NCBI GenBank assembly: GCA_945859975.1
Contig: CAMAPH010000047.1
Location: forward strand, 1 to 18,893
Source of the DNA: Chthonomonas calidirosea
Lineage (GTDB): Bacteria; Armatimonadota; Fimbriimonadia; Fimbriimonadales; Fimbriimonadaceae
Direction: 5' to 3'
Length of the DNA stretch: 18,893 nt
Both the position numbers and the translations under genes were made by a program. The notes under the pieces were generated by a model that ran no database searches, was not told the DNA's origin, and saw only the letters and a list, made by a program, of their open reading frames with translations. Shown here one piece after another: positions 1,620 to 18,893 of this stretch. The number at the start of each line of letters is the position of its first letter. Within the stretch, counting starts at the first letter, position 1.

Positions 1620-2672
1620 ATGATTCGCAAGTGGGTTGAGCATCTCGATGCCTTTTTCCGTCCAAAAAGCGCCAATGTCAATTTAGGCTGGGCGTTTCTG
1701 TTTGCCCTTTTGATCGGTGGGGTGGACTATTTCCTTCCGGGAGAGCTGTACGTTCTGTATCTGTTCCCGGTCGCATTCGCGAGCTGGTATGGGGGGGCGA
1801 GTTATGGGTTCGTCGTCGCGATCTATGCCGCAACCGCGATCCTCGTTTCCGATTCGTTCCTGGAACGTCGCTTTGTAGACCCGCTCCCGCCGGTTATCAC
1901 ATTTGTTGTCCGGCTCGTATCGTATGCGTTGATGGCACTACTGGTTGGGCAGTTGAAGGAAGCTCAACGGCTACAGCAACAGCTCACCGAGTTCATCGTT
2001 CACGATATCCGGTCCCCGCTCACATCTTCCATTTCTGGATTGGAGACCTTGCAACAGATCTCGGACGGGATGGACGACATTCAGAAAGAGATGGTCGAGC
2101 TGGCGCTCGTGGGAAGCCAACGGACGCTAGGCCTGGTGAACGGAATTCTTGATGTTTCCAAGCTTCAGAACGGCAAGATGGAACCCGACTGGCAGCGCGT
2201 GCAGGTGGAAGATGTGGTAGCCGGGGCGGTAGACGACGTTGCCCTTTGGGCACAAACGAACGACGTGGCCATCCAAGTTGACGTCAGGTCCGCGGAGTGG
2301 GTGCTAGACCCGACCCTCATTCGCCGCGTCATGGTCAACTTGCTGAGCAACGCGCTGAAGTTTTCTCCGCCGCAATCGCAGATTACGGTAGCAGCTGAGA
2401 GCCAAAACAACGTGCTTCGCATCAGCATTGCGGACCAGGGACCCGGTATTCCACCGGAGTTTCGGCAGTCCATCTTCGAGCCGTTCAGTCAGGTGAAGGG
2501 GACGAAGGGCGGCACCGGACTTGGCCTAACGTTCTGCCGACTCGCCGTGAATTCTCACGGTGGACACATTTGGCTGGAAAGCACCGTAGGCAAAGGCACC
2601 ACGATGATCTTTACGTTGCCTCAGCAGGAACTGCCATCGGTGCCGGAAAGTAAACTGGAACCCAAAGCATGA
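1620..2672 (+). CDS. Membrane sensor histidine kinase (N-terminal multi-TM DUF4118-like region + HisKA + HATPase_c)
   Basis: H-box FIVHDIRSPL, N-box NLLSNALKF, G1 DQGPGIP, F-box IFEPF, G2 GTGLGL, and about 4 hydrophobic N-terminal segments. Start ATG1620 chosen because the longer ORF overlaps lpdA. Confidence 0.93.
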   Translation: MIRKWVEHLDAFFRPKSANVNLGWAFLFALLIGGVDYFLPGELYVLYLFPVAFASWYGGASYGFVVAIYAATAILVSDSFLERRFVDPLPPVITFVVRLVSYALMALLVGQLKEAQRLQQQLTEFIVHDIRSPLTSSISGLETLQQISDGMDDIQKEMVELALVGSQRTLGLVNGILDVSKLQNGKMEPDWQRVQVEDVVAGAVDDVALWAQTNDVAIQVDVRSAEWVLDPTLIRRVMVNLLSNALKFSPPQSQITVAAESQNNVLRISIADQGPGIPPEFRQSIFEPFSQVKGTKGGTGLGLTFCRLAVNSHGGHIWLESTVGKGTTMIFTLPQQELPSVPESKLEPKA

Positions 2673-3010
2673 GCATTTTAGAGACTTTTCCGAACCCGGC
2701 GGTTGGCCGCGATTACACGATCAAGCACGTCTGCCCCGAGTTCACGAGCGTTTGCCCGAAGACCGGGCAGCCCGATTTTGCGACGATTGAGCTGGAATAC
2801 ATCCCGAACGAGCTCTGCGTTGAGTTGAAGTCACTGAAGCTGTACTACTACTCTTTCCGAAACGAGGGGATCTATTACGAAGCGGTGACTAACCGGTTGC
2901 TGAACGAGATTTCCGAGGCTTGTTCCCCACGCTGGATGCGCATCACCGGGCACTTCAACGTTCGTGGTGGCATCAGCAGCGTGATCACGGTCGAGACCGG
3001 CTCTCGCTGA
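2669..3010 (+). CDS. queF: NADPH-dependent 7-cyano-7-deazaguanine (preQ0) reductase QueF, short unimodular type
   Basis: EFTSVCPKTGQPDFA with the catalytic Cys/Asp, QueF motif ELKSLKLY, C-terminal FNVRGGI. ATGA overlap with the kinase stop. Confidence 0.95.
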   Translation: MSILETFPNPAVGRDYTIKHVCPEFTSVCPKTGQPDFATIELEYIPNELCVELKSLKLYYYSFRNEGIYYEAVTNRLLNEISEACSPRWMRITGHFNVRGGISSVITVETGSR

Positions 3011-3044
3011 GCGAGCCACATCTCTGGTAGCTGTTTGAGAGGTT

Positions 3045-3074
3045 GAAAATTTCTGTCCGATCACGGGAATTTTC
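3045..3074 (+). terminator. Hairpin downstream of queF (possible terminator or regulatory stem)
   Basis: GAAAATTTCTGT(3045-3056)-CCGATC-ACGGGAATTTTC(3063-3074): 12-bp stem with two G-U pairs, followed by TTGTACTATT. AT-rich stem, so atypical for a terminator. Confidence 0.35.
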
Positions 3075-3167
3075 TTGTACTATTACGGCAACGGGTCATA
3101 TTAATGCGATTGCTTTAGGGAAACCTTACGATTGGCTTGGATCAGAACCACCCCGAGCCGAGGTCAG

Positions 3168-3770
3168 ATGGTAGCGTTCAGTAAATTCCTTAAAGTTGCG
3201 TGTGGAATCGCCGTTTTGATTGCTGGTTTCGGGGTCGGCCGGGCGATGGCCGGCCCTACCGGATCAGCTGCAGCAGTCAAATCAAAAGCGCTAGGCGAGG
3301 TTCGGGAACCTCGACCCGAGCATGTCGAAGCTGGAGTGACTCACCTTCGCTCAATCTACGCGCGGTTAGAGGCAGAGGATTTTTCTGAAGCAGCGATCCG
3401 TGCTCTGTCCAAGAGTGACCGGCGAATGCCGTTTTCCGATCTCGCGGAGAATGTCACGTTCCACAAGTCAACGAACCTCGGGTTCCCGAAGTATGCGGAG
3501 ACGCCGGAGGTGCTTGCGGTGACGGAGGTGTATCACTACTACAATCGCACGCCGAAGGCTCCAGGAATGAATCGGTTTCAGCCTCGTGGCTACCATCTCG
3601 TCCTCTTCCGCGACGGAGAAATCGGAAAGTTCACCGAGTGCGAGTTGCGATTCCCTGCGGAACCCGATAAAGACGGGGTCTATCACGTTCTCTATCCGAA
3701 CTCGAAAGGTTACGACAAAGGTGTGCCAACGCCGGAATGCGAGTACTCCGAGGAGCCGAAACCGGAATAA
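3168..3770 (+). CDS. Hypothetical exported or membrane-anchored protein
   Basis: 200-aa ORF filling the gap, with an N-terminal K-rich then hydrophobic segment (SKFLKVACGIAVLIAGFGVG...AMA). Alternative start TTG3132. Confidence 0.7.
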   Translation: MVAFSKFLKVACGIAVLIAGFGVGRAMAGPTGSAAAVKSKALGEVREPRPEHVEAGVTHLRSIYARLEAEDFSEAAIRALSKSDRRMPFSDLAENVTFHKSTNLGFPKYAETPEVLAVTEVYHYYNRTPKAPGMNRFQPRGYHLVLFRDGEIGKFTECELRFPAEPDKDGVYHVLYPNSKGYDKGVPTPECEYSEEPKPE

Positions 3771-11532: not shown

Positions 11533-12633
11533 CTACAGTCGAACGTCGATCTTGAAGATGTAGGCGATTCCGGTGAGGATTCCGGCCCCTAGCAAGCTGC
11601 CAGAAATCACCTGGAGGATGCCCATATTCCAGAGTCGCACAATCGGCGGAGCCTGCAATCGCCGGACGAGCGAATAGTTTTTCAGCAGGTCATTGGCGCT
11701 GTTGATGGCTCGGGCGACCTGAGCGTCGCTTGGCGGACGGGTCGTGATGAACTTCTGCATGAAGCTTCCGACTGTCTTCCAGAGAAGGAGCGTCGCTAAC
11801 ACCGCCGCAAGCAAGCGCACTTCGGAACTGGGAACCCAAGGGGTGCGAAAGATTGACAGGAACAGCATCATGCCGGCAGCCAGGTTTGTTCCGCAACGTG
11901 GATGCACGCGAGGCATTCGCTTGACCACATCCACGGAAAGCGTCTCTCCGCGCTCAAGGGTGTGGACGACTTGGTGCTCAGCTCCGTGAATGCCCGCGAG
12001 CGGCGAAAGGCGGAGGCCGCCTAGAAACAGCGCAAGCGCCAAAAACTCTGCCGCCGGATTCTGCATCCAGGTTGGGATGACTTTCACCAACCAGTCTTCG
12101 GTGATCCACGCTCCGAGGTAGTTGCCAGTTGCGAGAAGGGCGAACATCGAGAATCCAGTGGCTACAAGCGCCCACTTGTTCGGCCCACCGCTGGCGGTTC
12201 CGGTTGTGAGATATACGCCGAACGGAGTTGCCATTCCACCAACTAGCGGCAAAACCGGGCGCGGGAGTGGTCGGGGATAGAGGTCGGCGTACGACATGGC
12301 GCCTAGGAGCGCATTTGCATCGTCAACAACCCACAGCCGGTCAACACTTTCGGTTTCCATGAGCCGGAGCGCGTCAGCGGCGCTTTGGTAGGCACGGATT
12401 GTCACGGCGGGGGAAGCGACGGTAGGGCCGGTGAGGTCAACGCCGTCGGCGAGGGCATTGCCAAGGGCTTTTGCGGTGACGAGACCAATGAGAATTTCGC
12501 CGTCCGTAACCGGAACCGCTCCGTCCAAGGCGTCTCGCATGAGCGTTGCCGCGCGTTCCCAAGAATCCTCGGGTTGCAGGGTTCTTACCGGCCGTGCGAA
12601 CAGGCTCACGGGAACATCAAGGCGGATACTCAC
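11533..12633 (-). CDS. CBS-pair + DUF1385 (YqhQ-like) membrane protein
   Basis: Two N-terminal CBS repeats (AVPVTDGEILIGLVT; RLWVVDDANALLGAMS), followed by DUF1385 motifs VGGMA..FGV, HGAEHQVVH..E.GE.L and PRVHPRCGTN, plus TM segments. Confidence 0.85.
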   Translation of the reverse strand: MSIRLDVPVSLFARPVRTLQPEDSWERAATLMRDALDGAVPVTDGEILIGLVTAKALGNALADGVDLTGPTVASPAVTIRAYQSAADALRLMETESVDRLWVVDDANALLGAMSYADLYPRPLPRPVLPLVGGMATPFGVYLTTGTASGGPNKWALVATGFSMFALLATGNYLGAWITEDWLVKVIPTWMQNPAAEFLALALFLGGLRLSPLAGIHGAEHQVVHTLERGETLSVDVVKRMPRVHPRCGTNLAAGMMLFLSIFRTPWVPSSEVRLLAAVLATLLLWKTVGSFMQKFITTRPPSDAQVARAINSANDLLKNYSLVRRLQAPPIVRLWNMGILQVISGSLLGAGILTGIAYIFKIDVRL

Positions 12634-15677: not shown

Positions 15678-15809
15678 GTCACTAGGTTTTACGTCAAAGT
15701 GCGCGAACATATCCCCCTATGGGACCGCCAGTTGGTGAGTTATGGTTCAACCCGTGCCAAAATGAGCGTGATTCGTTTGGCATCGGCCTGCGATATCGAG
15801 GGGCACTCA

Positions 15810-16376
15810 TTGGCAATTGACACCAGCGATTTTAGAAACGGTCTTTCCTTCGTGATGGACAACGAGTTTTGGACGATCATCGAGTTCCAGCACGTCAAGC
15901 CTGGAAAGGGTGGCGCGTTCGTCCGAACTCGACTCCGAAAGATCAAGTCCGGACAGGTCATCGAAAAGACTTTCCGATCCGGAGAAAAAGTAGAGCCAGC
16001 TTTCATCGAAAAGGTGGAAATGCAGTACCTGTACAAGCAGGGTGACGACGCGATCGTGATGGACCTCGACACCTATGAGCAGATTCCAATCCCGATGGCT
16101 ACGCTTGGAGACCAAGCCAAGTACCTGAAGGAAGAGTCGAAAATCATCGCGTCCGTCAGCGGAGCGGAAACCCTTGGCTACGAGCTTCCAAACTTTATGG
16201 AGCTAGAGGTCACGGAGACGGACCCAGGATTTAAGGGCGACACCGTGAGTGGAAGCAACAAACCAGCGACGTTGGAAACCGGTGCGGTAGTTCAAGTTCC
16301 TTTTCACATTAATATTGGTGATGTGATTAAGGTAGATACTCGTACCGATTCGTATCTTGAACGCGTCAAGAAGTAA
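15810..16376 (+). CDS. efp: Elongation factor P (lysine-type PGKG loop)
   Basis: HVKPGKGGAFVRTRL, KTFRSGEKV, MQYLY, PGFKGDT, KPATLETG..VQVPFHI..GD.IKVDTR. TTG start at 15810 with SD GAGGGG 6 nt upstream; 188 aa. Confidence 0.97.
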   Translation: MAIDTSDFRNGLSFVMDNEFWTIIEFQHVKPGKGGAFVRTRLRKIKSGQVIEKTFRSGEKVEPAFIEKVEMQYLYKQGDDAIVMDLDTYEQIPIPMATLGDQAKYLKEESKIIASVSGAETLGYELPNFMELEVTETDPGFKGDTVSGSNKPATLETGAVVQVPFHINIGDVIKVDTRTDSYLERVKK

Positions 16377-16381
16377 GAGCT

Positions 16382-17437
16382 ATGGCCGCCGGCAGAGACC
16401 TCAACGAGACACTTCAAGATTTTCTGTCGGCGTGTGCCCGATTCTTGCTTTATGCGGGCGCAGTCGCAGCCGTCGGCGCGGCTGGCCTACTCATTTTCAC
16501 CATCATTCGGATGGCTGACCCTGGAGCAGCGTCGCAAACGGCGGACGCCCTTCGCAATGTCGGCATTTTCCAAAACGTTCTGCTCGTTAGCGTTTTGGCC
16601 GCCGGGGTTGGTGCCAGCTACATGTTCTGGGGCGAGGATCTGCTGAGCGGTGGCTTGCTGATCCTAGCAGCCGTCCTTTACTTTGCTCCGCTTTACATTC
16701 CGATGATGGTCGCGAATTCCGACCAGAACGATGCTGGGCGGAAGAGTTACGAGGCACTTCAATCTGCCGGCACCTGGCTGGGTGTCATTGCGATAATCGT
16801 AGTTGTCGCGGATCTGTTTAACCGCGTCCGAAACCGATCAAAGGAAGGCGTCAAAGCCGATCTCCTGAAGTACGGCAAGGGTGTTAAACAAGAGCAGGAC
16901 CGCGAGAACGTGTTCCTTGGCAAGTGCTGGCAGCTGCCGTTTTGCCGAAAGTTCGTTCGCGAGCGCTGCCCGATTTACCATTCAAAGCGGACTTGCTGGA
17001 AGGAGCAGGTCGGCTGTATGTGCGAAGAGCAAGTCATCAAGGGTGCCATGGAGAACCGTCCGATTCCAAAGGACGCTTTGCTGGCCGCCCAGATGATCCC
17101 GCGGAACCATAAGCTCACTCCCGCGCAGAAGAAAGAGCGATGCAACGTTTGCGTGATCTACAACGAGCACCAGCGGCACAAGTACCGAGCCCTGTTGCCG
17201 GGCGTACTCGCTGGATTCATCGCCTTTTACGTCTTGTTCCGAAGTCCGCTGATGAGCGGGATGACCGCGCTCGTAGGACAGATCAATAAGGTTATGTACG
17301 GTTTCACCTACGGCGCGAGTGGCCAGCAGAAGATTCCGGTGCTCTTTACGGAGATGCTCTTGGTTGTCTTCTTCTTGGTCGCCCTGAGTTACGCATTGAA
17401 GATGATTGAATATGCCGTCTTCAAGCTGAAGATTTAA
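16382..17437 (+). CDS. Hypothetical ~6-TM membrane protein with a central 8-Cys 'two-CW'-like domain
   Basis: Four N-terminal and two C-terminal hydrophobic helices flank CWQLPFC..CPIY..CWKEQVGCMC....CNVCVIY. Starts 5 nt after the efp stop. Confidence 0.85.
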   Translation: MAAGRDLNETLQDFLSACARFLLYAGAVAAVGAAGLLIFTIIRMADPGAASQTADALRNVGIFQNVLLVSVLAAGVGASYMFWGEDLLSGGLLILAAVLYFAPLYIPMMVANSDQNDAGRKSYEALQSAGTWLGVIAIIVVVADLFNRVRNRSKEGVKADLLKYGKGVKQEQDRENVFLGKCWQLPFCRKFVRERCPIYHSKRTCWKEQVGCMCEEQVIKGAMENRPIPKDALLAAQMIPRNHKLTPAQKKERCNVCVIYNEHQRHKYRALLPGVLAGFIAFYVLFRSPLMSGMTALVGQINKVMYGFTYGASGQQKIPVLFTEMLLVVFFLVALSYALKMIEYAVFKLKI

Positions 17438-18492
17438 TGGCCCTGAGTCCGTTTCTACGGATCGATGGCTCGTTTGGCGAAGGTGGGGGCGGGTTGGTCC
17501 GGACAGCGCTGACCGTCTCCGCGATGATTCAGCAGCCCGTAGAAATCATCAACGTCCGCGCCGGGACACGGTTCCCCGGACTTGACGTCGAGGACGTCGT
17601 TTTACTTCGCGCGCTGGCCAAAGTGACTGGTACCGAGACGAGTGCGTGCAACGTTGGCGACCATTCGATCACGTTCCATCCGAACCATCGAGCAAAAGGG
17701 CTCTCGGGGAAGGTCGGAGGTGAGCGGAACGTTCACGGCCGAACCGCTAATGGGCCGATCACGCTTACGGCCCTCATTCCGGCTTTGGCGCGAAGCGGAA
17801 TGTACTCTTCGCTCCTCGTTGAAGGTGAGACTTTCGGAACGAATGCGCTCGGGTTTGATGCCTTTGCGGAGGGCACGCTTGGTGTACTTCGAGAGATGGG
17901 GATTTACGCATTTCCAGAGCATCAGCAGGTCGGGTTCGGGCGAGATTCGGCCGGCGAGATTGCGATTGATATTGAGCCTTCGGTGGTTAATGGACTCGAC
18001 TGGCCGGATCGCGGCAAGTTGATCGCGGTTCGGGGGCGGGTTTCCACCGCGAGAGTGCCGGAGTCGATTGCGGCGCGCGCGCTATCTCACCTTGAAAAGC
18101 TGGCGAAAGCGGCGAACGTGCCAGTTGAGGCAGAAGCGGTCGAGCTAGAAGGCGCGGCCTCCGGCGTGCACGTGACGCTTTGGGCGGTTTATGAACGTGG
18201 GCTGGCTACGGGCACTTCGATGGGAGTTAAGGGGCTGCGTGTGGAAGCGCTGGTGCAAGATGCTTTTGATCAGCTTGCGGAGTGGATGACTTCCAATGCG
18301 ACGCTGGATGCTTACTTGGCGGACCAGATTTTGGTTCCGGCGGCGTTTGCAGATTCCGGCAGCGTGTTCCGCGTTTCGGAACTGACATCTCGGTTTATGA
18401 CCGCGGTATGGGTGATCAAGCAGTTCGTGCCGGCCCGGATTACGGTTCGAGGTTCCGAGGGTGGGCCTGGGCTTGTAACCATTGAGCGGTAG
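17437..18492 (+). CDS. RNA 3'-terminal phosphate cyclase (RtcA)-like protein with a degenerate active site
   Basis: IDGSFGEGGG..VRTAL, NVRAG..PGL, D.YLADQILVP and colinear full length identify the RTC family. The catalytic His and several other motifs are substituted, so the symbol rtcA is withheld. TAATG overlap with the upstream gene. Confidence 0.88.
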   Translation: MALSPFLRIDGSFGEGGGGLVRTALTVSAMIQQPVEIINVRAGTRFPGLDVEDVVLLRALAKVTGTETSACNVGDHSITFHPNHRAKGLSGKVGGERNVHGRTANGPITLTALIPALARSGMYSSLLVEGETFGTNALGFDAFAEGTLGVLREMGIYAFPEHQQVGFGRDSAGEIAIDIEPSVVNGLDWPDRGKLIAVRGRVSTARVPESIAARALSHLEKLAKAANVPVEAEAVELEGAASGVHVTLWAVYERGLATGTSMGVKGLRVEALVQDAFDQLAEWMTSNATLDAYLADQILVPAAFADSGSVFRVSELTSRFMTAVWVIKQFVPARITVRGSEGGPGLVTIER

Positions 18493-18510
18493 GTAGAGAT
18501 ACCGTTCGGG

Positions 18511-18516
18511 TACTTT
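18511..18516 (+). promoter_or_regulatory. -10 box TACTTT 6 nt before a GTG start (leaderless-type promoter)
   Basis: ggg-TACTTT-cccacg-GTG(18523), with no SD. Confidence 0.5.
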
Positions 18517-18522
18517 CCCACG

Positions 18523-18893
18523 GTGCGCGTCGCCTTCCTTTTTGCGTTCGGAGCTTTGGCTGCCTTTGCTTCGGCAGATCGTTTGATCACGATCCCAACG
18601 GGGCGGAAGATTCCGTTCAAGGCGGTTCGGGCCGAGCTTTGGTACCAGCCGACGAAGGACGGCACGACGGAGTACTACTTTGGAACCGGATTGACGGACC
18701 TTTTTGAAATTGAAGTCCGAACTCAGCGACTTCCGCAACGGGATGTCAACACGGCGGTTGACCTGAGCTACAACATCATCGGTCCGATTCCTGACTTGAC
18801 TCCGGGCATTAGTATTGGCGTTCAGGACATTGCCAATGCGACCGTGGACGGGCGAAGGCCATACGCGGCACTCACTTTACGGCAGACACTTTC
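18523..18893 (+). CDS. Exported protein, probably a YjbH-like outer-membrane beta-barrel (partial, runs off the window; absent from the ORF track)
   Basis: My translation: MRVAFLFAFGALAAFASA-DRLITIPTGRKIPFKAVRAELWY...FEIEVRT...AVDLSYNII..IPDLTPGISIGVQDI...RRPYAALT. Signal peptide, IPT motif, P.ISIGVQD and alternating beta-strand pattern; no stop before the window end. Confidence 0.7.
   Translation, partial: MRVAFLFAFGALAAFASADRLITIPTGRKIPFKAVRAELWYQPTKDGTTEYYFGTGLTDLFEIEVRTQRLPQRDVNTAVDLSYNIIGPIPDLTPGISIGVQDIANATVDGRRPYAALTLRQTL

What the first reader, a model, noticed from the sequence alone, without database searches (positions are those of the whole stretch)
17437..18492. Bacterial RtcA homologue that lacks the catalytic histidine (pseudo-cyclase, analogous to eukaryotic Rcl1)
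Seen: an intact 351-aa RTC-family ORF. By-eye comparison with E. coli RtcA as I recall it gives: GEGGGQ->GEGGGG (G19); RAGRxKPGL..QH->RAGTRFPGLDVED (QH replaced by acidic E52/D53, nt 17590-17595); LQT->LTA; GGT..P.AP->GETFGTNAL; GFYP.GGG->GFGRDSAG; and the nucleophile motif (S/T)xHxxTN->TSRFMTA (His->Arg319, nt 18391-18393). Retained: E15, R22, the R of the RAG motif, and LADQ. Established: RtcA needs His309 to form the covalent enzyme-AMP intermediate, and eukaryotic Rcl1 keeps the fold without this His and has a different role in rRNA processing. Inference: this protein cannot use the standard cyclase chemistry, yet it is not decayed (no frameshift or stop, coupled start). It may be a repurposed nucleotide-, RNA- or protein-binding factor. 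No rtcB or rtcR is present in the window.
Basis: partly seen in the sequence, partly recalled or inferred. Interest (0 to 1): 0.8.

Follow-up and report, generated by a model that had tools for sequence, protein, structure and literature searches.

The report
Histidine-less RtcA relative in Fimbriimonadaceae bacteria
This gene encodes a well-preserved copy of the RNA-end cyclase RtcA whose catalytic histidine and four other pocket residues were swapped for charged ones in a whole bacterial family, a bacterial parallel to eukaryotic Rcl1 whose new job is still unknown.

Summary
ORF 17437-18492 encodes a 351-aa RtcA-fold protein: Pfam RTC plus insert domain, and an AF2 model with TM 0.91 to Pyrococcus RtcA. 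Alignment to solved RtcAs puts Arg319 on the nucleophile His and Glu52-Asp53 on the 3'-phosphate ligands Gln-His.

This is not a one-off. About 90 proteins and 48 genomic loci, all Fimbriimonadaceae-type Armatimonadota, share the changes. The clade is monophyletic. Its sister group has His->Thr.

Only five positions are conserved in both this clade and canonical RtcA but with different residues (Q19A, Q52E, H53D, G131E, H319R). All five lie in catalytic-pocket motifs.

Selection is strongly purifying (dN/dS 0.018). Two genomes of the same genus also carry a canonical RtcA, so the gene is a distinct paralogue. Eukaryotic Rcl1 has the same His->Arg change, but profile scores place this clade with RtcA, so the change arose separately.

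The gene is translationally coupled to a phylum-wide Cys-rich membrane protein gene downstream of efp. That linkage partly reflects an old housekeeping cluster.

Canonical cyclase chemistry is excluded. I favour a non-catalytic binding role (about 0.45) over a new metal-dependent enzyme (about 0.3). Function is untested. Earlier notes of this scan describe separate histidine-less RtcAs in DPANN archaea.

The parts
17437..18492 (+). R-type RtcA-fold gene (351 aa, P0001), a histidine-less paralogue of RNA 3'-phosphate cyclase
   Evidence: The ORF is intact. Pfam RTC and RTC_insert both match. The AF2 model has pLDDT 93.8. Foldseek gives TM 0.91/0.94 to 4o89_A.
17479..17502 (+). E15...R22 segment (GEGGGG-LVR). 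E15 and R22 are retained. The Gln of GEGGGQ is Gly here and Ala in most of the clade.
   Evidence: Alignment to solved RtcAs. In the clade, position 19 is A 69, G 8 of 93, and R22 is 90 of 90 non-gap. Canonical RtcA has Q in 45 of 45 rows.
17557..17595 (+). R41 to D53 segment. R41 is kept. T44 replaces the transition-state Arg (Pho R39). D50 replaces Pho R45. E52-D53 replace the 3'-phosphate ligands Gln-His.
   Evidence: Alignment. Residue roles come from PMC4174438 passages. E52 and D53 are 93 of 93.
17824..17850 (+). G130-E131-T132...L138 segment, GETFGTNAL in place of GGTH..P. It carries the G->E change. The adenine-contact Pro becomes Leu and the RNA-stacking Trp becomes Asn.
   Evidence: E131 is 92 of 93. 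Canonical RtcA has G in 45 of 45 rows.
18307..18327 (+). D291...Y293-L-A-D296-Q297. The aromatic and Asp residues of the AMP-nucleoside pocket are retained.
   Evidence: D296 is 89 of 93 (E in 4) and Q297 is 83 of 93.
18391..18393 (+). CGG codon for Arg319, at the position of the adenylylated His (E. coli H309, P. horikoshii H307)
   Evidence: R is 91 of 93. Canonical RtcA has H in 45 of 45 rows and the sister clade has T in 5 of 5.
16382..17437 (+). Upstream, translationally coupled gene for a 351-aa membrane protein. It has six predicted helical hairpin/TM segments and a cytoplasmic loop with 8 invariant Cys plus one His. It matches no Pfam family.
   Evidence: It lies directly upstream of the R-type gene in 41 of 48 R-type loci. 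It is found in 284 of 301 Armatimonadota genomes.
15810..16376 (+). efp (elongation factor P, Lys-type KPGKGG loop). The start is probably the TTG at 15810. Its stop lies 5 nt before the membrane-protein gene.
   Evidence: The order efp, membrane gene, R-type gene is found in 39 loci.

Best explanation
Shown. The gene belongs to a paralogue lineage of RtcA (here 'R-type') that is specific to Fimbriimonadaceae. It keeps the whole RtcA fold. Five pocket positions have been exchanged: Gln19->Ala/Gly, Gln52->Glu, His53->Asp, Gly131->Glu and the nucleophile His319->Arg. In addition, the transition-state Arg (Pho R39) is Thr. The exchanged residues are themselves fixed across the clade, and the gene is under strong purifying selection.

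Inferred from published RtcA mechanism. Without the His nucleophile, the Gln/His phosphate ligands and the transition-state Arg, the protein cannot form the His-AMP intermediate. It also cannot bind an RNA 3'-phosphate or pyrophosphate in the canonical way. It is therefore not an RNA 3'-phosphate cyclase.

Inferred, my preferred reading. The new carboxylates (E52, D53, E131, beside the retained E15) pair with the retained or gained arginines (R22, R41, R319). They occupy the former phosphate site, so the pocket is closed by an internal charge network. The protein then works as a non-catalytic binding module, as Rcl1 does in eukaryotes.

Inferred from gene context. The gene is probably co-expressed with efp and a Cys-rich membrane protein. 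Its His->Thr sister clade is coupled in the same way to the ybeY-dgkA-corC cluster. This hints at a housekeeping role near translation or ribosome maturation, or at the cytoplasmic face of a membrane protein. Neither the partner nor the ligand is known.
For: Fold and family.

Residue mapping to solved RtcAs. Residue roles were read in PMC4174438. R17/R36/Q47/H48 bind the 3'-phosphate, R39 stabilises the transition state, H307 is the nucleophile, and D286/P127/F283 hold the adenosine.

Clade-wide fixation: E52 93/93, D53 93/93, E131 92/93, R319 91/93.

Conserved-but-different positions: only five, between 45 R-type and 45 canonical rows. All five lie in pocket motifs.

Relaxed positions: residues that are conserved in canonical RtcA and touch RNA or nucleotide are variable in the R-type. 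These are positions 103, 104, 111, 133, 142, 171 and 172.

Selection: dN/dS is 0.018 for the window against L003 and 0.014 for L033 against L053.

Tree: the R-type forms one clade (SH-aLRT 99). The His->Thr sister group forms one clade (99). Both are split from all His-bearing sequences (100).

Paralogy: two genomes of the same genus carry both the R-type and a fully canonical RtcA.

Rcl1 parallel: Rcl1 has the same His->Arg (PMC4150785) and an acidic residue at the His52 position in the profile alignment.

Charge: R-type proteins are more acidic, median pI 6.2 against 8.3.

Fringe members: they vary position 319 (Pro, Lys, Glu, Gln, Ser) yet keep Glu-Asp. This fits a structural rather than a nucleophilic role for Arg319.

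Gene coupling: the gap between the membrane gene and the R-type gene is 10 nt or less in 35 of 41 loci. The sister clade overlaps a corC-type gene in 5 of 5 loci.
Against: A truly inert pocket usually drifts. In Rcl1 the pocket residues are reported as not conserved (PMC4150785 passages). Here the most conserved residues of the clade are the pocket residues. Four carboxylates beside three arginines could equally be a metal and substrate site.

The adenosine-pocket residues Y/F293, D296 and Q297 are largely kept. This would be unexpected if no nucleotide were bound.

I had no model coordinates, so the proposed salt bridges were not measured.

The context evidence is weak. The membrane protein occurs in 284 of 301 genomes of the phylum, and the R-type only in one family. 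The ancestral order is efp, membrane gene, accB, x, accC, nusB. The efp linkage is therefore partly inherited synteny. Four assessable R-type loci lack the membrane gene upstream.

No experiment exists.
Confidence: 0.5

Rival explanations
1. New enzyme. The remodelled pocket (E15, E52, D53, E131 with R22, R41, R319, and the retained adenosine-binding Y293/D296/Q297) binds metal ions and a nucleotide or RNA end. It catalyses a different reaction without a covalent His intermediate, for example phosphoester hydrolysis or cleavage, or direct nucleotidyl transfer.
For: All five conserved-but-different positions lie in the pocket and are near-invariant. E15, R22, R41, D296 and Q297 are retained. 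Purifying selection is strong. A carboxylate cluster is the usual signature of metal-dependent phosphoryl chemistry (general knowledge). Rcl1 itself has been proposed, and disputed, as a nuclease (PMC4150785 passages).
Against: Loops that bind RNA in RtcA are relaxed. Position 319 is Pro, Lys, Glu, Gln or Ser in scattered members. LADQ becomes (T/A)AEH in a subclade (4 full-length loci: L018, L020, L041, L044) and is absent in three divergent representatives. The proteins are acidic overall. There is no precedent for such chemistry on this fold.
Confidence: 0.3
2. Dedicated partner of the neighbouring genes. The protein binds the Cys-rich cytoplasmic loop of the upstream membrane protein, or acts on EF-P (for instance in a so far unknown EF-P modification).
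For: The start is coupled in 41 of 48 loci, while the outer flanks differ between loci. The EF-P loop is of the Lys type, and no EpmA, EpmB or EarP was found in this genome. The EarP control rang nowhere, so that search is uninformative.
Against: The membrane protein and its efp linkage are phylum-wide without the R-type. The ancestral cluster is efp, membrane gene, accB, accC, nusB. The sister clade sits elsewhere, after corC. Four R-type loci lack the neighbour.
Confidence: 0.1
3. Still a cyclase or adenylyltransferase that uses another nucleophile (Arg319 itself or a different residue).
For: The fold and the adenosine pocket are largely kept.
Against: The phosphate ligands Gln/His are acidic and the transition-state Arg is Thr. 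No His is conserved in the clade, and the only conserved Lys is K328, far along the helix. Position 319 varies in fringe members. NCBIfam RtcA equivalog scores are 192-195 bits, below the cut-offs of 250 and 352.
Confidence: 0.05
4. A decaying or recently inactivated rtcA under relaxed selection.
For: None beyond the loss of catalytic residues.
Against: dN/dS is 0.018 and 0.014 in the two closest pairs. A high-scoring match was found in 31 of 31 sampled genomes of the family. There are no stops or frameshifts. The replacement residues are fixed.
Confidence: 0.02

Closest known systems
RtcA, RNA 3'-terminal phosphate cyclase (E. coli 3tut/3kgd/1qmh, P. horikoshii 4o89; Pfam PF01137+PF05189; TIGR03399)
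   Same: It has the same two-domain fold (TM 0.91/0.94, rmsd 1.9 A to 4o89_A). It makes the same Pfam matches. It retains E15, R22, R41, the LADQ adenosine-pocket motif and T322. By profile score it is closest to RtcA, at 181 bits.
   Different: The nucleophile His is Arg. The Gln-His phosphate ligands are Glu-Asp. The transition-state Arg is Thr. The Gln of GEGGGQ is Ala/Gly. GGT is GET. RNA-contact residues are lost or variable. Scores fall below both NCBIfam RtcA cut-offs. The gene is not next to rtcB or rtcR. It coexists with a canonical RtcA in two genomes.
Rcl1 (eukaryotic RNA cyclase-like protein of the small-subunit processome; 4clq, 3pqv, 7suk)
   Same: It has the RtcA fold without cyclase residues. 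It carries the same His->Arg at the nucleophile position (PMC4150785), followed by Phe in both, and an acidic residue at the His52 position (alignment). TM is about 0.82.
   Different: Sequence kinship is only distant: 35 bits to the clade profile, and TIGR03400 scores 37.7 bits against a cut-off of 228. Rcl1 lacks LADQ in that alignment. Its pocket is reported as not conserved, whereas here the pocket is the most conserved part. Rcl1's partner Bms1 and the U3 processome are eukaryotic.
Histidine-less RtcA homologues of DPANN archaea noted earlier in this scan (e1-2587427, e1-5774741)
   Same: They are prokaryotic RtcA-fold proteins that lost the catalytic His and are conserved within a lineage (AI notes, not checked here).
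   Different: They come from another domain and from other genomes. A sequence look-up found no look-alike of this protein among earlier findings. They are therefore separate losses.
His->Thr 'T-type' sister clade in Fimbriimonadales (L045, L047, L048, L101, L102, P0095, P0096)
   Same: It is the sister group of the R-type clade in the tree. It also lacks the nucleophile, has Asp at position 53 and lacks the Gln of GEGGGQ.
   Different: It keeps GGTH, the Gln of LQT, the AG loop and most of PxGGG. It has Thr, not Arg, at 319. Its gene follows ybeY-dgkA-corC rather than efp and the membrane gene.

Membership tests
RtcA (RNA 3'-phosphate cyclase, catalytically active class) | RTC fold: large domain of repeated units plus inserted domain | tested here: met
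   Pfam RTC scores 135 bits and RTC_insert 45 bits. The AF2 model has pLDDT 93.8. Foldseek gives TM 0.91/0.94 to 4o89_A.
RtcA (RNA 3'-phosphate cyclase, catalytically active class) | Nucleophile His that forms the covalent His-AMP intermediate (E. coli H309, Pho H307) | tested here: not met
   Arg319 aligns to it. R is 91 of 93 in the clade.
RtcA (RNA 3'-phosphate cyclase, catalytically active class) | 3'-phosphate/pyrophosphate ligands Gln-His (Pho Q47, H48) and the transition-state Arg (Pho R39) | tested here: not met
   These positions are E52, D53 and T44.
RtcA (RNA 3'-phosphate cyclase, catalytically active class) | Arg pair that binds the terminal phosphate (Pho R17, R36) and the Glu of GEGGGQ | tested here: met
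   R22, R41 and E15 are retained.
RtcA (RNA 3'-phosphate cyclase, catalytically active class) | Score above the curated equivalog cut-offs (TIGR03399, NF003246) | tested here: not met
   191.7 bits against 250.05, and 194.7 bits against 352.
RtcA (RNA 3'-phosphate cyclase, catalytically active class) | ATP-dependent adenylylation and cyclisation activity | not testable with these tools
   This needs purified protein.
RtcA (RNA 3'-phosphate cyclase, catalytically active class) | Frequent operon with rtcB and rtcR (typical, not obligatory) | tested here: not met
   Neither gene is in the window. rtcB lies on another contig.
Rcl1 (eukaryotic cyclase-like processome protein) | RtcA fold lacking the nucleophile His (Arg in yeasts) | tested here: met
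Rcl1 (eukaryotic cyclase-like processome protein) | Sequence membership (TIGR03400 cut-off 227.95 bits) | tested here: not met
   TIGR03400 scores 37.7 bits. The clade profile scores 35 bits on Rcl1 chains and 181 bits on RtcA.
Rcl1 (eukaryotic cyclase-like processome protein) | Complex with the GTPase Bms1 and a role in 18S pre-rRNA processing | not testable with these tools
   The partner is eukaryotic. No bacterial counterpart was examined.

The most novel reading that the evidence does not exclude
The R-type protein is a working bacterial counterpart of Rcl1 or a new enzyme. On this reading its re-lined pocket (four carboxylates, three arginines and a retained adenosine site) binds metal and a nucleotide or RNA end. 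It would then carry out a new reaction or a checkpoint in ribosome or translation-factor maturation. The His->Thr sister clade next to ybeY would be the evolutionary intermediate.
Probability: 0.25. Interest if true: 0.8.

Novelty: new variant of a known kind. Interest (0 to 1): 0.6.

Why it matters
RtcA and Rcl1 are the textbook pair of an enzyme and its non-catalytic descendant. Rcl1's real role is still debated.

This is a bacterial lineage that made the same His->Arg change independently. It also keeps a recognisable intermediate, the His->Thr sister clade. In some genomes it sits beside the ancestral enzyme.

That gives a tractable system for asking how and why this fold is repurposed. 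Fimbriimonas ginsengisoli is a named species with a complete genome, and its record carries a clade member (P0013).

There is also an annotation problem. Public records name these proteins 'RNA 3'-terminal phosphate cyclase'. The residue evidence says they cannot be that.

My literature searches found no description of a bacterial histidine-less RtcA. The library searched is open-access only.

Tried and rejected
Complex prediction. I predicted the R-type protein (alignment A1) together with the Cys-rich loop of the upstream membrane protein (A2, residues 148-275). There was no verdict: ipSAE was 0.01 and 0.00, and the controls were not run. This is neither for nor against binding.

Expression. 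Four metatranscriptome runs were laid on 15700-18600. Contigs of related strains (95-99% alike) cover efp, bridge the junction between efp and the membrane gene (16221-16488 and 16287-16487), and cover 16681-16847. None lies on the R-type gene. These are contigs, so this shows neither expression nor silence.

Membrane protein. Its AF2 model has pLDDT 76 overall but about 50 in the Cys-rich loop, so no fold search was made. Pfam at E<=10 gave only noise. The Atlas gave only unnamed Armatimonadota clusters.

EF-P modification enzymes in the own genome. The EpmA model's best hit is 223 bits, below the cut-off of 287, in a 571-aa frame. I take this to be a lysyl-tRNA synthetase, which I did not verify. 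EpmB gave no hit. EarP gave no hit, but its control rang in no genome, so that search says nothing.

dN/dS on distant pairs. 390 of 903 pairs are saturated at synonymous sites. The median of 0.35 over the 241 pairs with dS below 2 is inflated by saturation. Only the two closest pairs are quoted. A first script timed out.

Tree. The careful tree search did not finish, so the quick IQ-TREE tree is reported. Six fragments were left out: L027, L046, L050, L051, L069 and L078. The root is at the midpoint only, so 'derived from Armatimonadota RtcA' is not shown.

Context of the canonical second copies (L121, L122). No obvious rtcB or rtcR was seen in the ORF lists. Pfam was not run on them.

Papers. 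Tanaka et al. 2010 and 2011 (the RtcA-AMP and Rcl1 structures) are not held. Supplemental Fig. S4 of PMC4174438 was not seen.
Full report
THE OBSERVATION

The ORF at 17437-18492 (+) is intact and encodes 351 residues. Its ATG shares one base with the TAA of the upstream ORF, TAATG at 17435-17439. It matches Pfam RTC (135.3 bits) and RTC_insert (45.3 bits). It scores only 191.7 and 194.7 bits on the two NCBIfam RtcA equivalog models, whose cut-offs are 250 and 352. It scores 37.7 bits on the Rcl1 model, whose cut-off is 228.

HMMER alignments to solved structures are gap-free through the N-terminal motifs (P. horikoshii RtcA 4o89, E 1.7e-29; E. coli RtcA, E about 1e-25). They give the following mapping:
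- R319 lies on the nucleophile His.
- E52-D53 lie on Gln-His.
- G19 lies on the Gln of GEGGGQ.
- GETFG lies on GGT(D/H).
- GFGRDSAG lies on the G-x-Y-P-x-GGG motif.
- E15, R22, R41 and LADQ are retained.

An AF2 model built from 41 clade sequences is confident (pLDDT 93.8, pTM 0.91). It superposes on P. horikoshii RtcA with TM 0.91/0.94 and rmsd 1.9 A, and on Rcl1 chains with TM about 0.82.

WHAT THE LOST RESIDUES DO

I read passages of Desai et al. 2014 (PMC4174438). In P. horikoshii RtcA:
- The RNA 3'-phosphate is held by R17, R36, Q47, H48 and the backbone of G13.
- R39 stabilises the transition state.
- H307 carries the AMP.
- D286, P127 and F283 hold the adenosine.
- R45, T91, A92, S94, S124, W125, Y157 and P158 contact the RNA.

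With the offsets these map as follows:
- Kept: R22, R41, G18, Y293 and D296.
- Changed: T44 (for R39), D50 (R45), E52 (Q47), D53 (H48), N136 (W125), L138 (P127), G168 (Y157) and R319 (H307).

Variants of R17, R36, R39 and H307 were inactive in that paper. The canonical three-step cyclase chemistry therefore cannot run here. This is an inference from published mechanism, not an assay.

IT IS A CLADE, NOT AN ACCIDENT

A search of 5.8 billion proteins gave 112 hits. P0002-P0094 are 37-98% identical to the window protein. Where a source names them, they come from Fimbriimonadaceae, Fimbriimonas ginsengisoli or Armatimonadetes. Identity then drops sharply to canonical RtcAs at 27-32%.

In those 93 proteins the counts are E52 93/93, D53 93/93, E131 92/93, R41 93/93 and R319 91/93 (one Gln, one Ser). 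Position 19 is Ala in 69 and position 44 is Thr in 69.

In one genome per species I obtained 80 loci. Of these, 48 are R-type, 3 have Thr at the His position ('T-type') and 29 are canonical.

A profile search of 301 Armatimonadota genomes gave matches of 361 bits or more in 31 of 31 sampled genomes of the window's own family. It gave 322-339 bits in 2 of 2 genomes of a second family of the same order. Everywhere else the score was 273 bits or less. I fetched 20 of these matches:
- The two from the second family are T-type.
- All 16 from other families are canonical.
- The second matches in two genomes of the window's own genus (G209, G255) are fully canonical RtcAs.

So the R-type and the true enzyme coexist in those two genomes. 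The window's own genome has only the R-type, and an rtcB on another contig.

An exhaustive HMM search of 1.84 billion cluster representatives found 6462 family members at E<=0.001. Of the best 150 plus the query, 110 have the canonical five-residue pattern, 33 are R- or T-like and 8 are other variants. Fringe R-like members carry Pro, Lys or Glu at 319 but keep Glu-Asp.

TREE AND SELECTION

I built a quick IQ-TREE tree (LG+C20, 101 rows). Six fragments were dropped, and the careful search did not finish. The tree makes the 45 R-type rows one clade (SH-aLRT 99) and the 7 T-type rows one clade (99). It splits R+T from all 49 His-bearing rows with support 100. The root is at the midpoint only.

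Nei-Gojobori estimates for the two closest pairs are:
- Window against L003: dN 0.026, dS 1.385, ratio 0.018.
- L033 against L053: ratio 0.014.
- The neighbours efp and the membrane gene give 0.008 and 0.029 for the window-L003 pair.

More distant pairs are saturated.

WHERE THE CHANGE IS CONCENTRATED

I compared 45 R-type with 45 canonical rows. Only five positions are at least 85% conserved in both groups but with different residues: 19 (Q->A), 52 (Q->E), 53 (H->D), 131 (G->E) and 319 (H->R). All five lie in the catalytic-pocket motifs.

Positions conserved in canonical RtcA but free in the R-type include the AG loop (103, 104), the Gln of LQT (111), the His of GGTH (133) and the GGG of the YP-GGG motif (171, 172). 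The T-type is intermediate. It has S19, V/I52, D53 and T319 but still has G131, H133, Q111 and G104.

R-type proteins are also more acidic, with median pI 6.2 against 8.3. No His is conserved in the clade. The only conserved Lys is K328, nine residues down the helix from 319.

COMPARISON WITH Rcl1

Delprato et al. 2014 (PMC4150785, passages) state that E. coli H309 is replaced by R321 in yeast Rcl1p and by R319 in K. lactis Rcl1. They state that pocket substitutions gave no growth defect and that the residues around the former adenylate site are not conserved.

The clade profile aligns its S-R-F to the E-R-F of Rcl1, and its E-D to Y-E. It scores 35 bits on Rcl1 and 181 bits on RtcA. The two His->Arg changes are thus best read as independent.

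Earlier notes of this scan describe separate histidine-less RtcAs in DPANN archaea (unchecked). A sequence look-up found nothing like the present protein among earlier findings.

CONTEXT

The upstream gene (16382-17437) encodes a membrane protein with a cytoplasmic loop bearing eight invariant Cys and one His. It has no Pfam family. efp ends 5 nt before it.

The membrane gene lies directly upstream of the R-type gene in 41 of 48 loci. Four assessable loci lack it and three are too short to assess. The gap is 10 nt or less in 35 of the 41. efp precedes the membrane gene in 39 loci.

However, the membrane protein is found in 284 of 301 genomes of the phylum. It follows efp in 15 of 18 sampled loci outside the family. 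There it is followed by accB, a small ORF, accC and nusB. So efp plus the membrane gene is an old pair inside a housekeeping cluster, and the R-type gene joined it only in Fimbriimonadaceae.

The T-type gene overlaps the end of a corC-type (CNNM/CBS) membrane protein gene in 5 of 5 loci. ybeY or dgkA lie upstream where sequence is available and Pfam was run: L045, L101, L102, and L047 for corC only. The window's genome has ybeY-dgkA-corC without an RTC gene after it.

Both histidine-less lineages are thus coupled to the 3' end of a membrane-protein gene inside clusters tied to translation or ribosome maturation. This is suggestive, but it is only association.

READING

Shown:
- A conserved, selected, monophyletic RtcA paralogue lineage.
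- A pocket that has been exchanged specifically and coordinately.

Inferred with high confidence:
- There is no canonical cyclase chemistry.

Open:
- What the protein does.

I prefer a non-catalytic binding module whose former phosphate site is filled by carboxylate-arginine pairs (about 0.45). The reasons are that RNA-contact residues are relaxed, position 319 is replaceable in fringe members, the proteins are acidic, and Rcl1 reached the same solution.

The main rival is a new metal-dependent enzyme (about 0.3). It is supported by the near-invariance of the pocket and by the retained adenosine-binding residues.

The other rivals have lower odds:
- A dedicated role with the neighbouring genes: about 0.1.
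- Residual cyclase activity: about 0.05.
- Decay: about 0.02.

LITERATURE

Four full-text searches found no description of a bacterial histidine-less RtcA. Public records name these proteins as cyclases. Tanaka et al. 2010 and 2011 were not held. What I say about ATP and metal contacts of E. coli RtcA beyond the passages cited is recalled, not read.

Noticed in passing
window 16382-17437 (+): This is a 351-aa membrane protein with a cytoplasmic loop carrying 8 invariant Cys (C182, 188, 196, 205, 212, 214, 254, 257) and H200. It has no Pfam family. It is present in 284 of 301 Armatimonadota genomes and sits directly after efp in 15 of 18 sampled loci outside the family. It is a phylum-wide, efp-linked protein of unknown function, possibly binding metal or an Fe-S cluster.
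   Followed up: partly
L045:6001-7056, L047:921-1973, L048:5995-7047, L101:2564-3628 (-), L102 about 2640-3686: This is the sister 'T-type' RtcA clade. It has Thr at the nucleophile position and Asp at His52 but otherwise keeps most RtcA motifs. Its gene always overlaps the end of a corC-type gene in a 7TM-HD, ybeY, dgkA, corC cluster.
   Followed up: partly
window 15699-16376 (+): The efp ORF as listed starts at GTG 15699, but the EF-P domains begin at residue 40. TTG at 15810 gives a normal 188-aa EF-P. The loop is the Lys type (KPGKGG). No EpmA or EpmB was found in the genome, and the EarP search was uninformative.
   Followed up: partly
L042 (record titled Methanoregulaceae archaeon): An R-type gene 46% identical to the window's sits on a contig labelled as archaeal. 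In the tree it nests among Fimbriimonadaceae sequences, next to L030. The contig is probably mis-binned.
   Followed up: no
window 15796-16847: Metatranscriptome contigs of related lake strains (95-99% alike) cover efp. In two runs they bridge the junction between efp and the membrane gene.
   Followed up: no
P0145, P0151, P0153, P0172, P0198, P0252, P0253: These are RtcA-family representatives of 539-641 aa with the canonical five-residue pattern, that is, fused forms with an extra domain on one side.
   Followed up: no
P0227, P0223, P0195: These are isolated RtcA-family representatives outside the clade with other pocket changes. For example, P0227 has Arg at the His position and E-Q for Q-H. 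They may be further independent losses.
   Followed up: no
G025:C10:8976-9656 and G120:C2:195721-196191: These are second, partial RTC-profile matches (80-86 bits, covering the first half only) inside 448-aa frames in two genomes of the same family. They were not examined.
   Followed up: no
window 11533-12633 (-): This ORF combines CBS domains with DUF1385/DUF6391 matches, which is an unusual combination.
   Followed up: no
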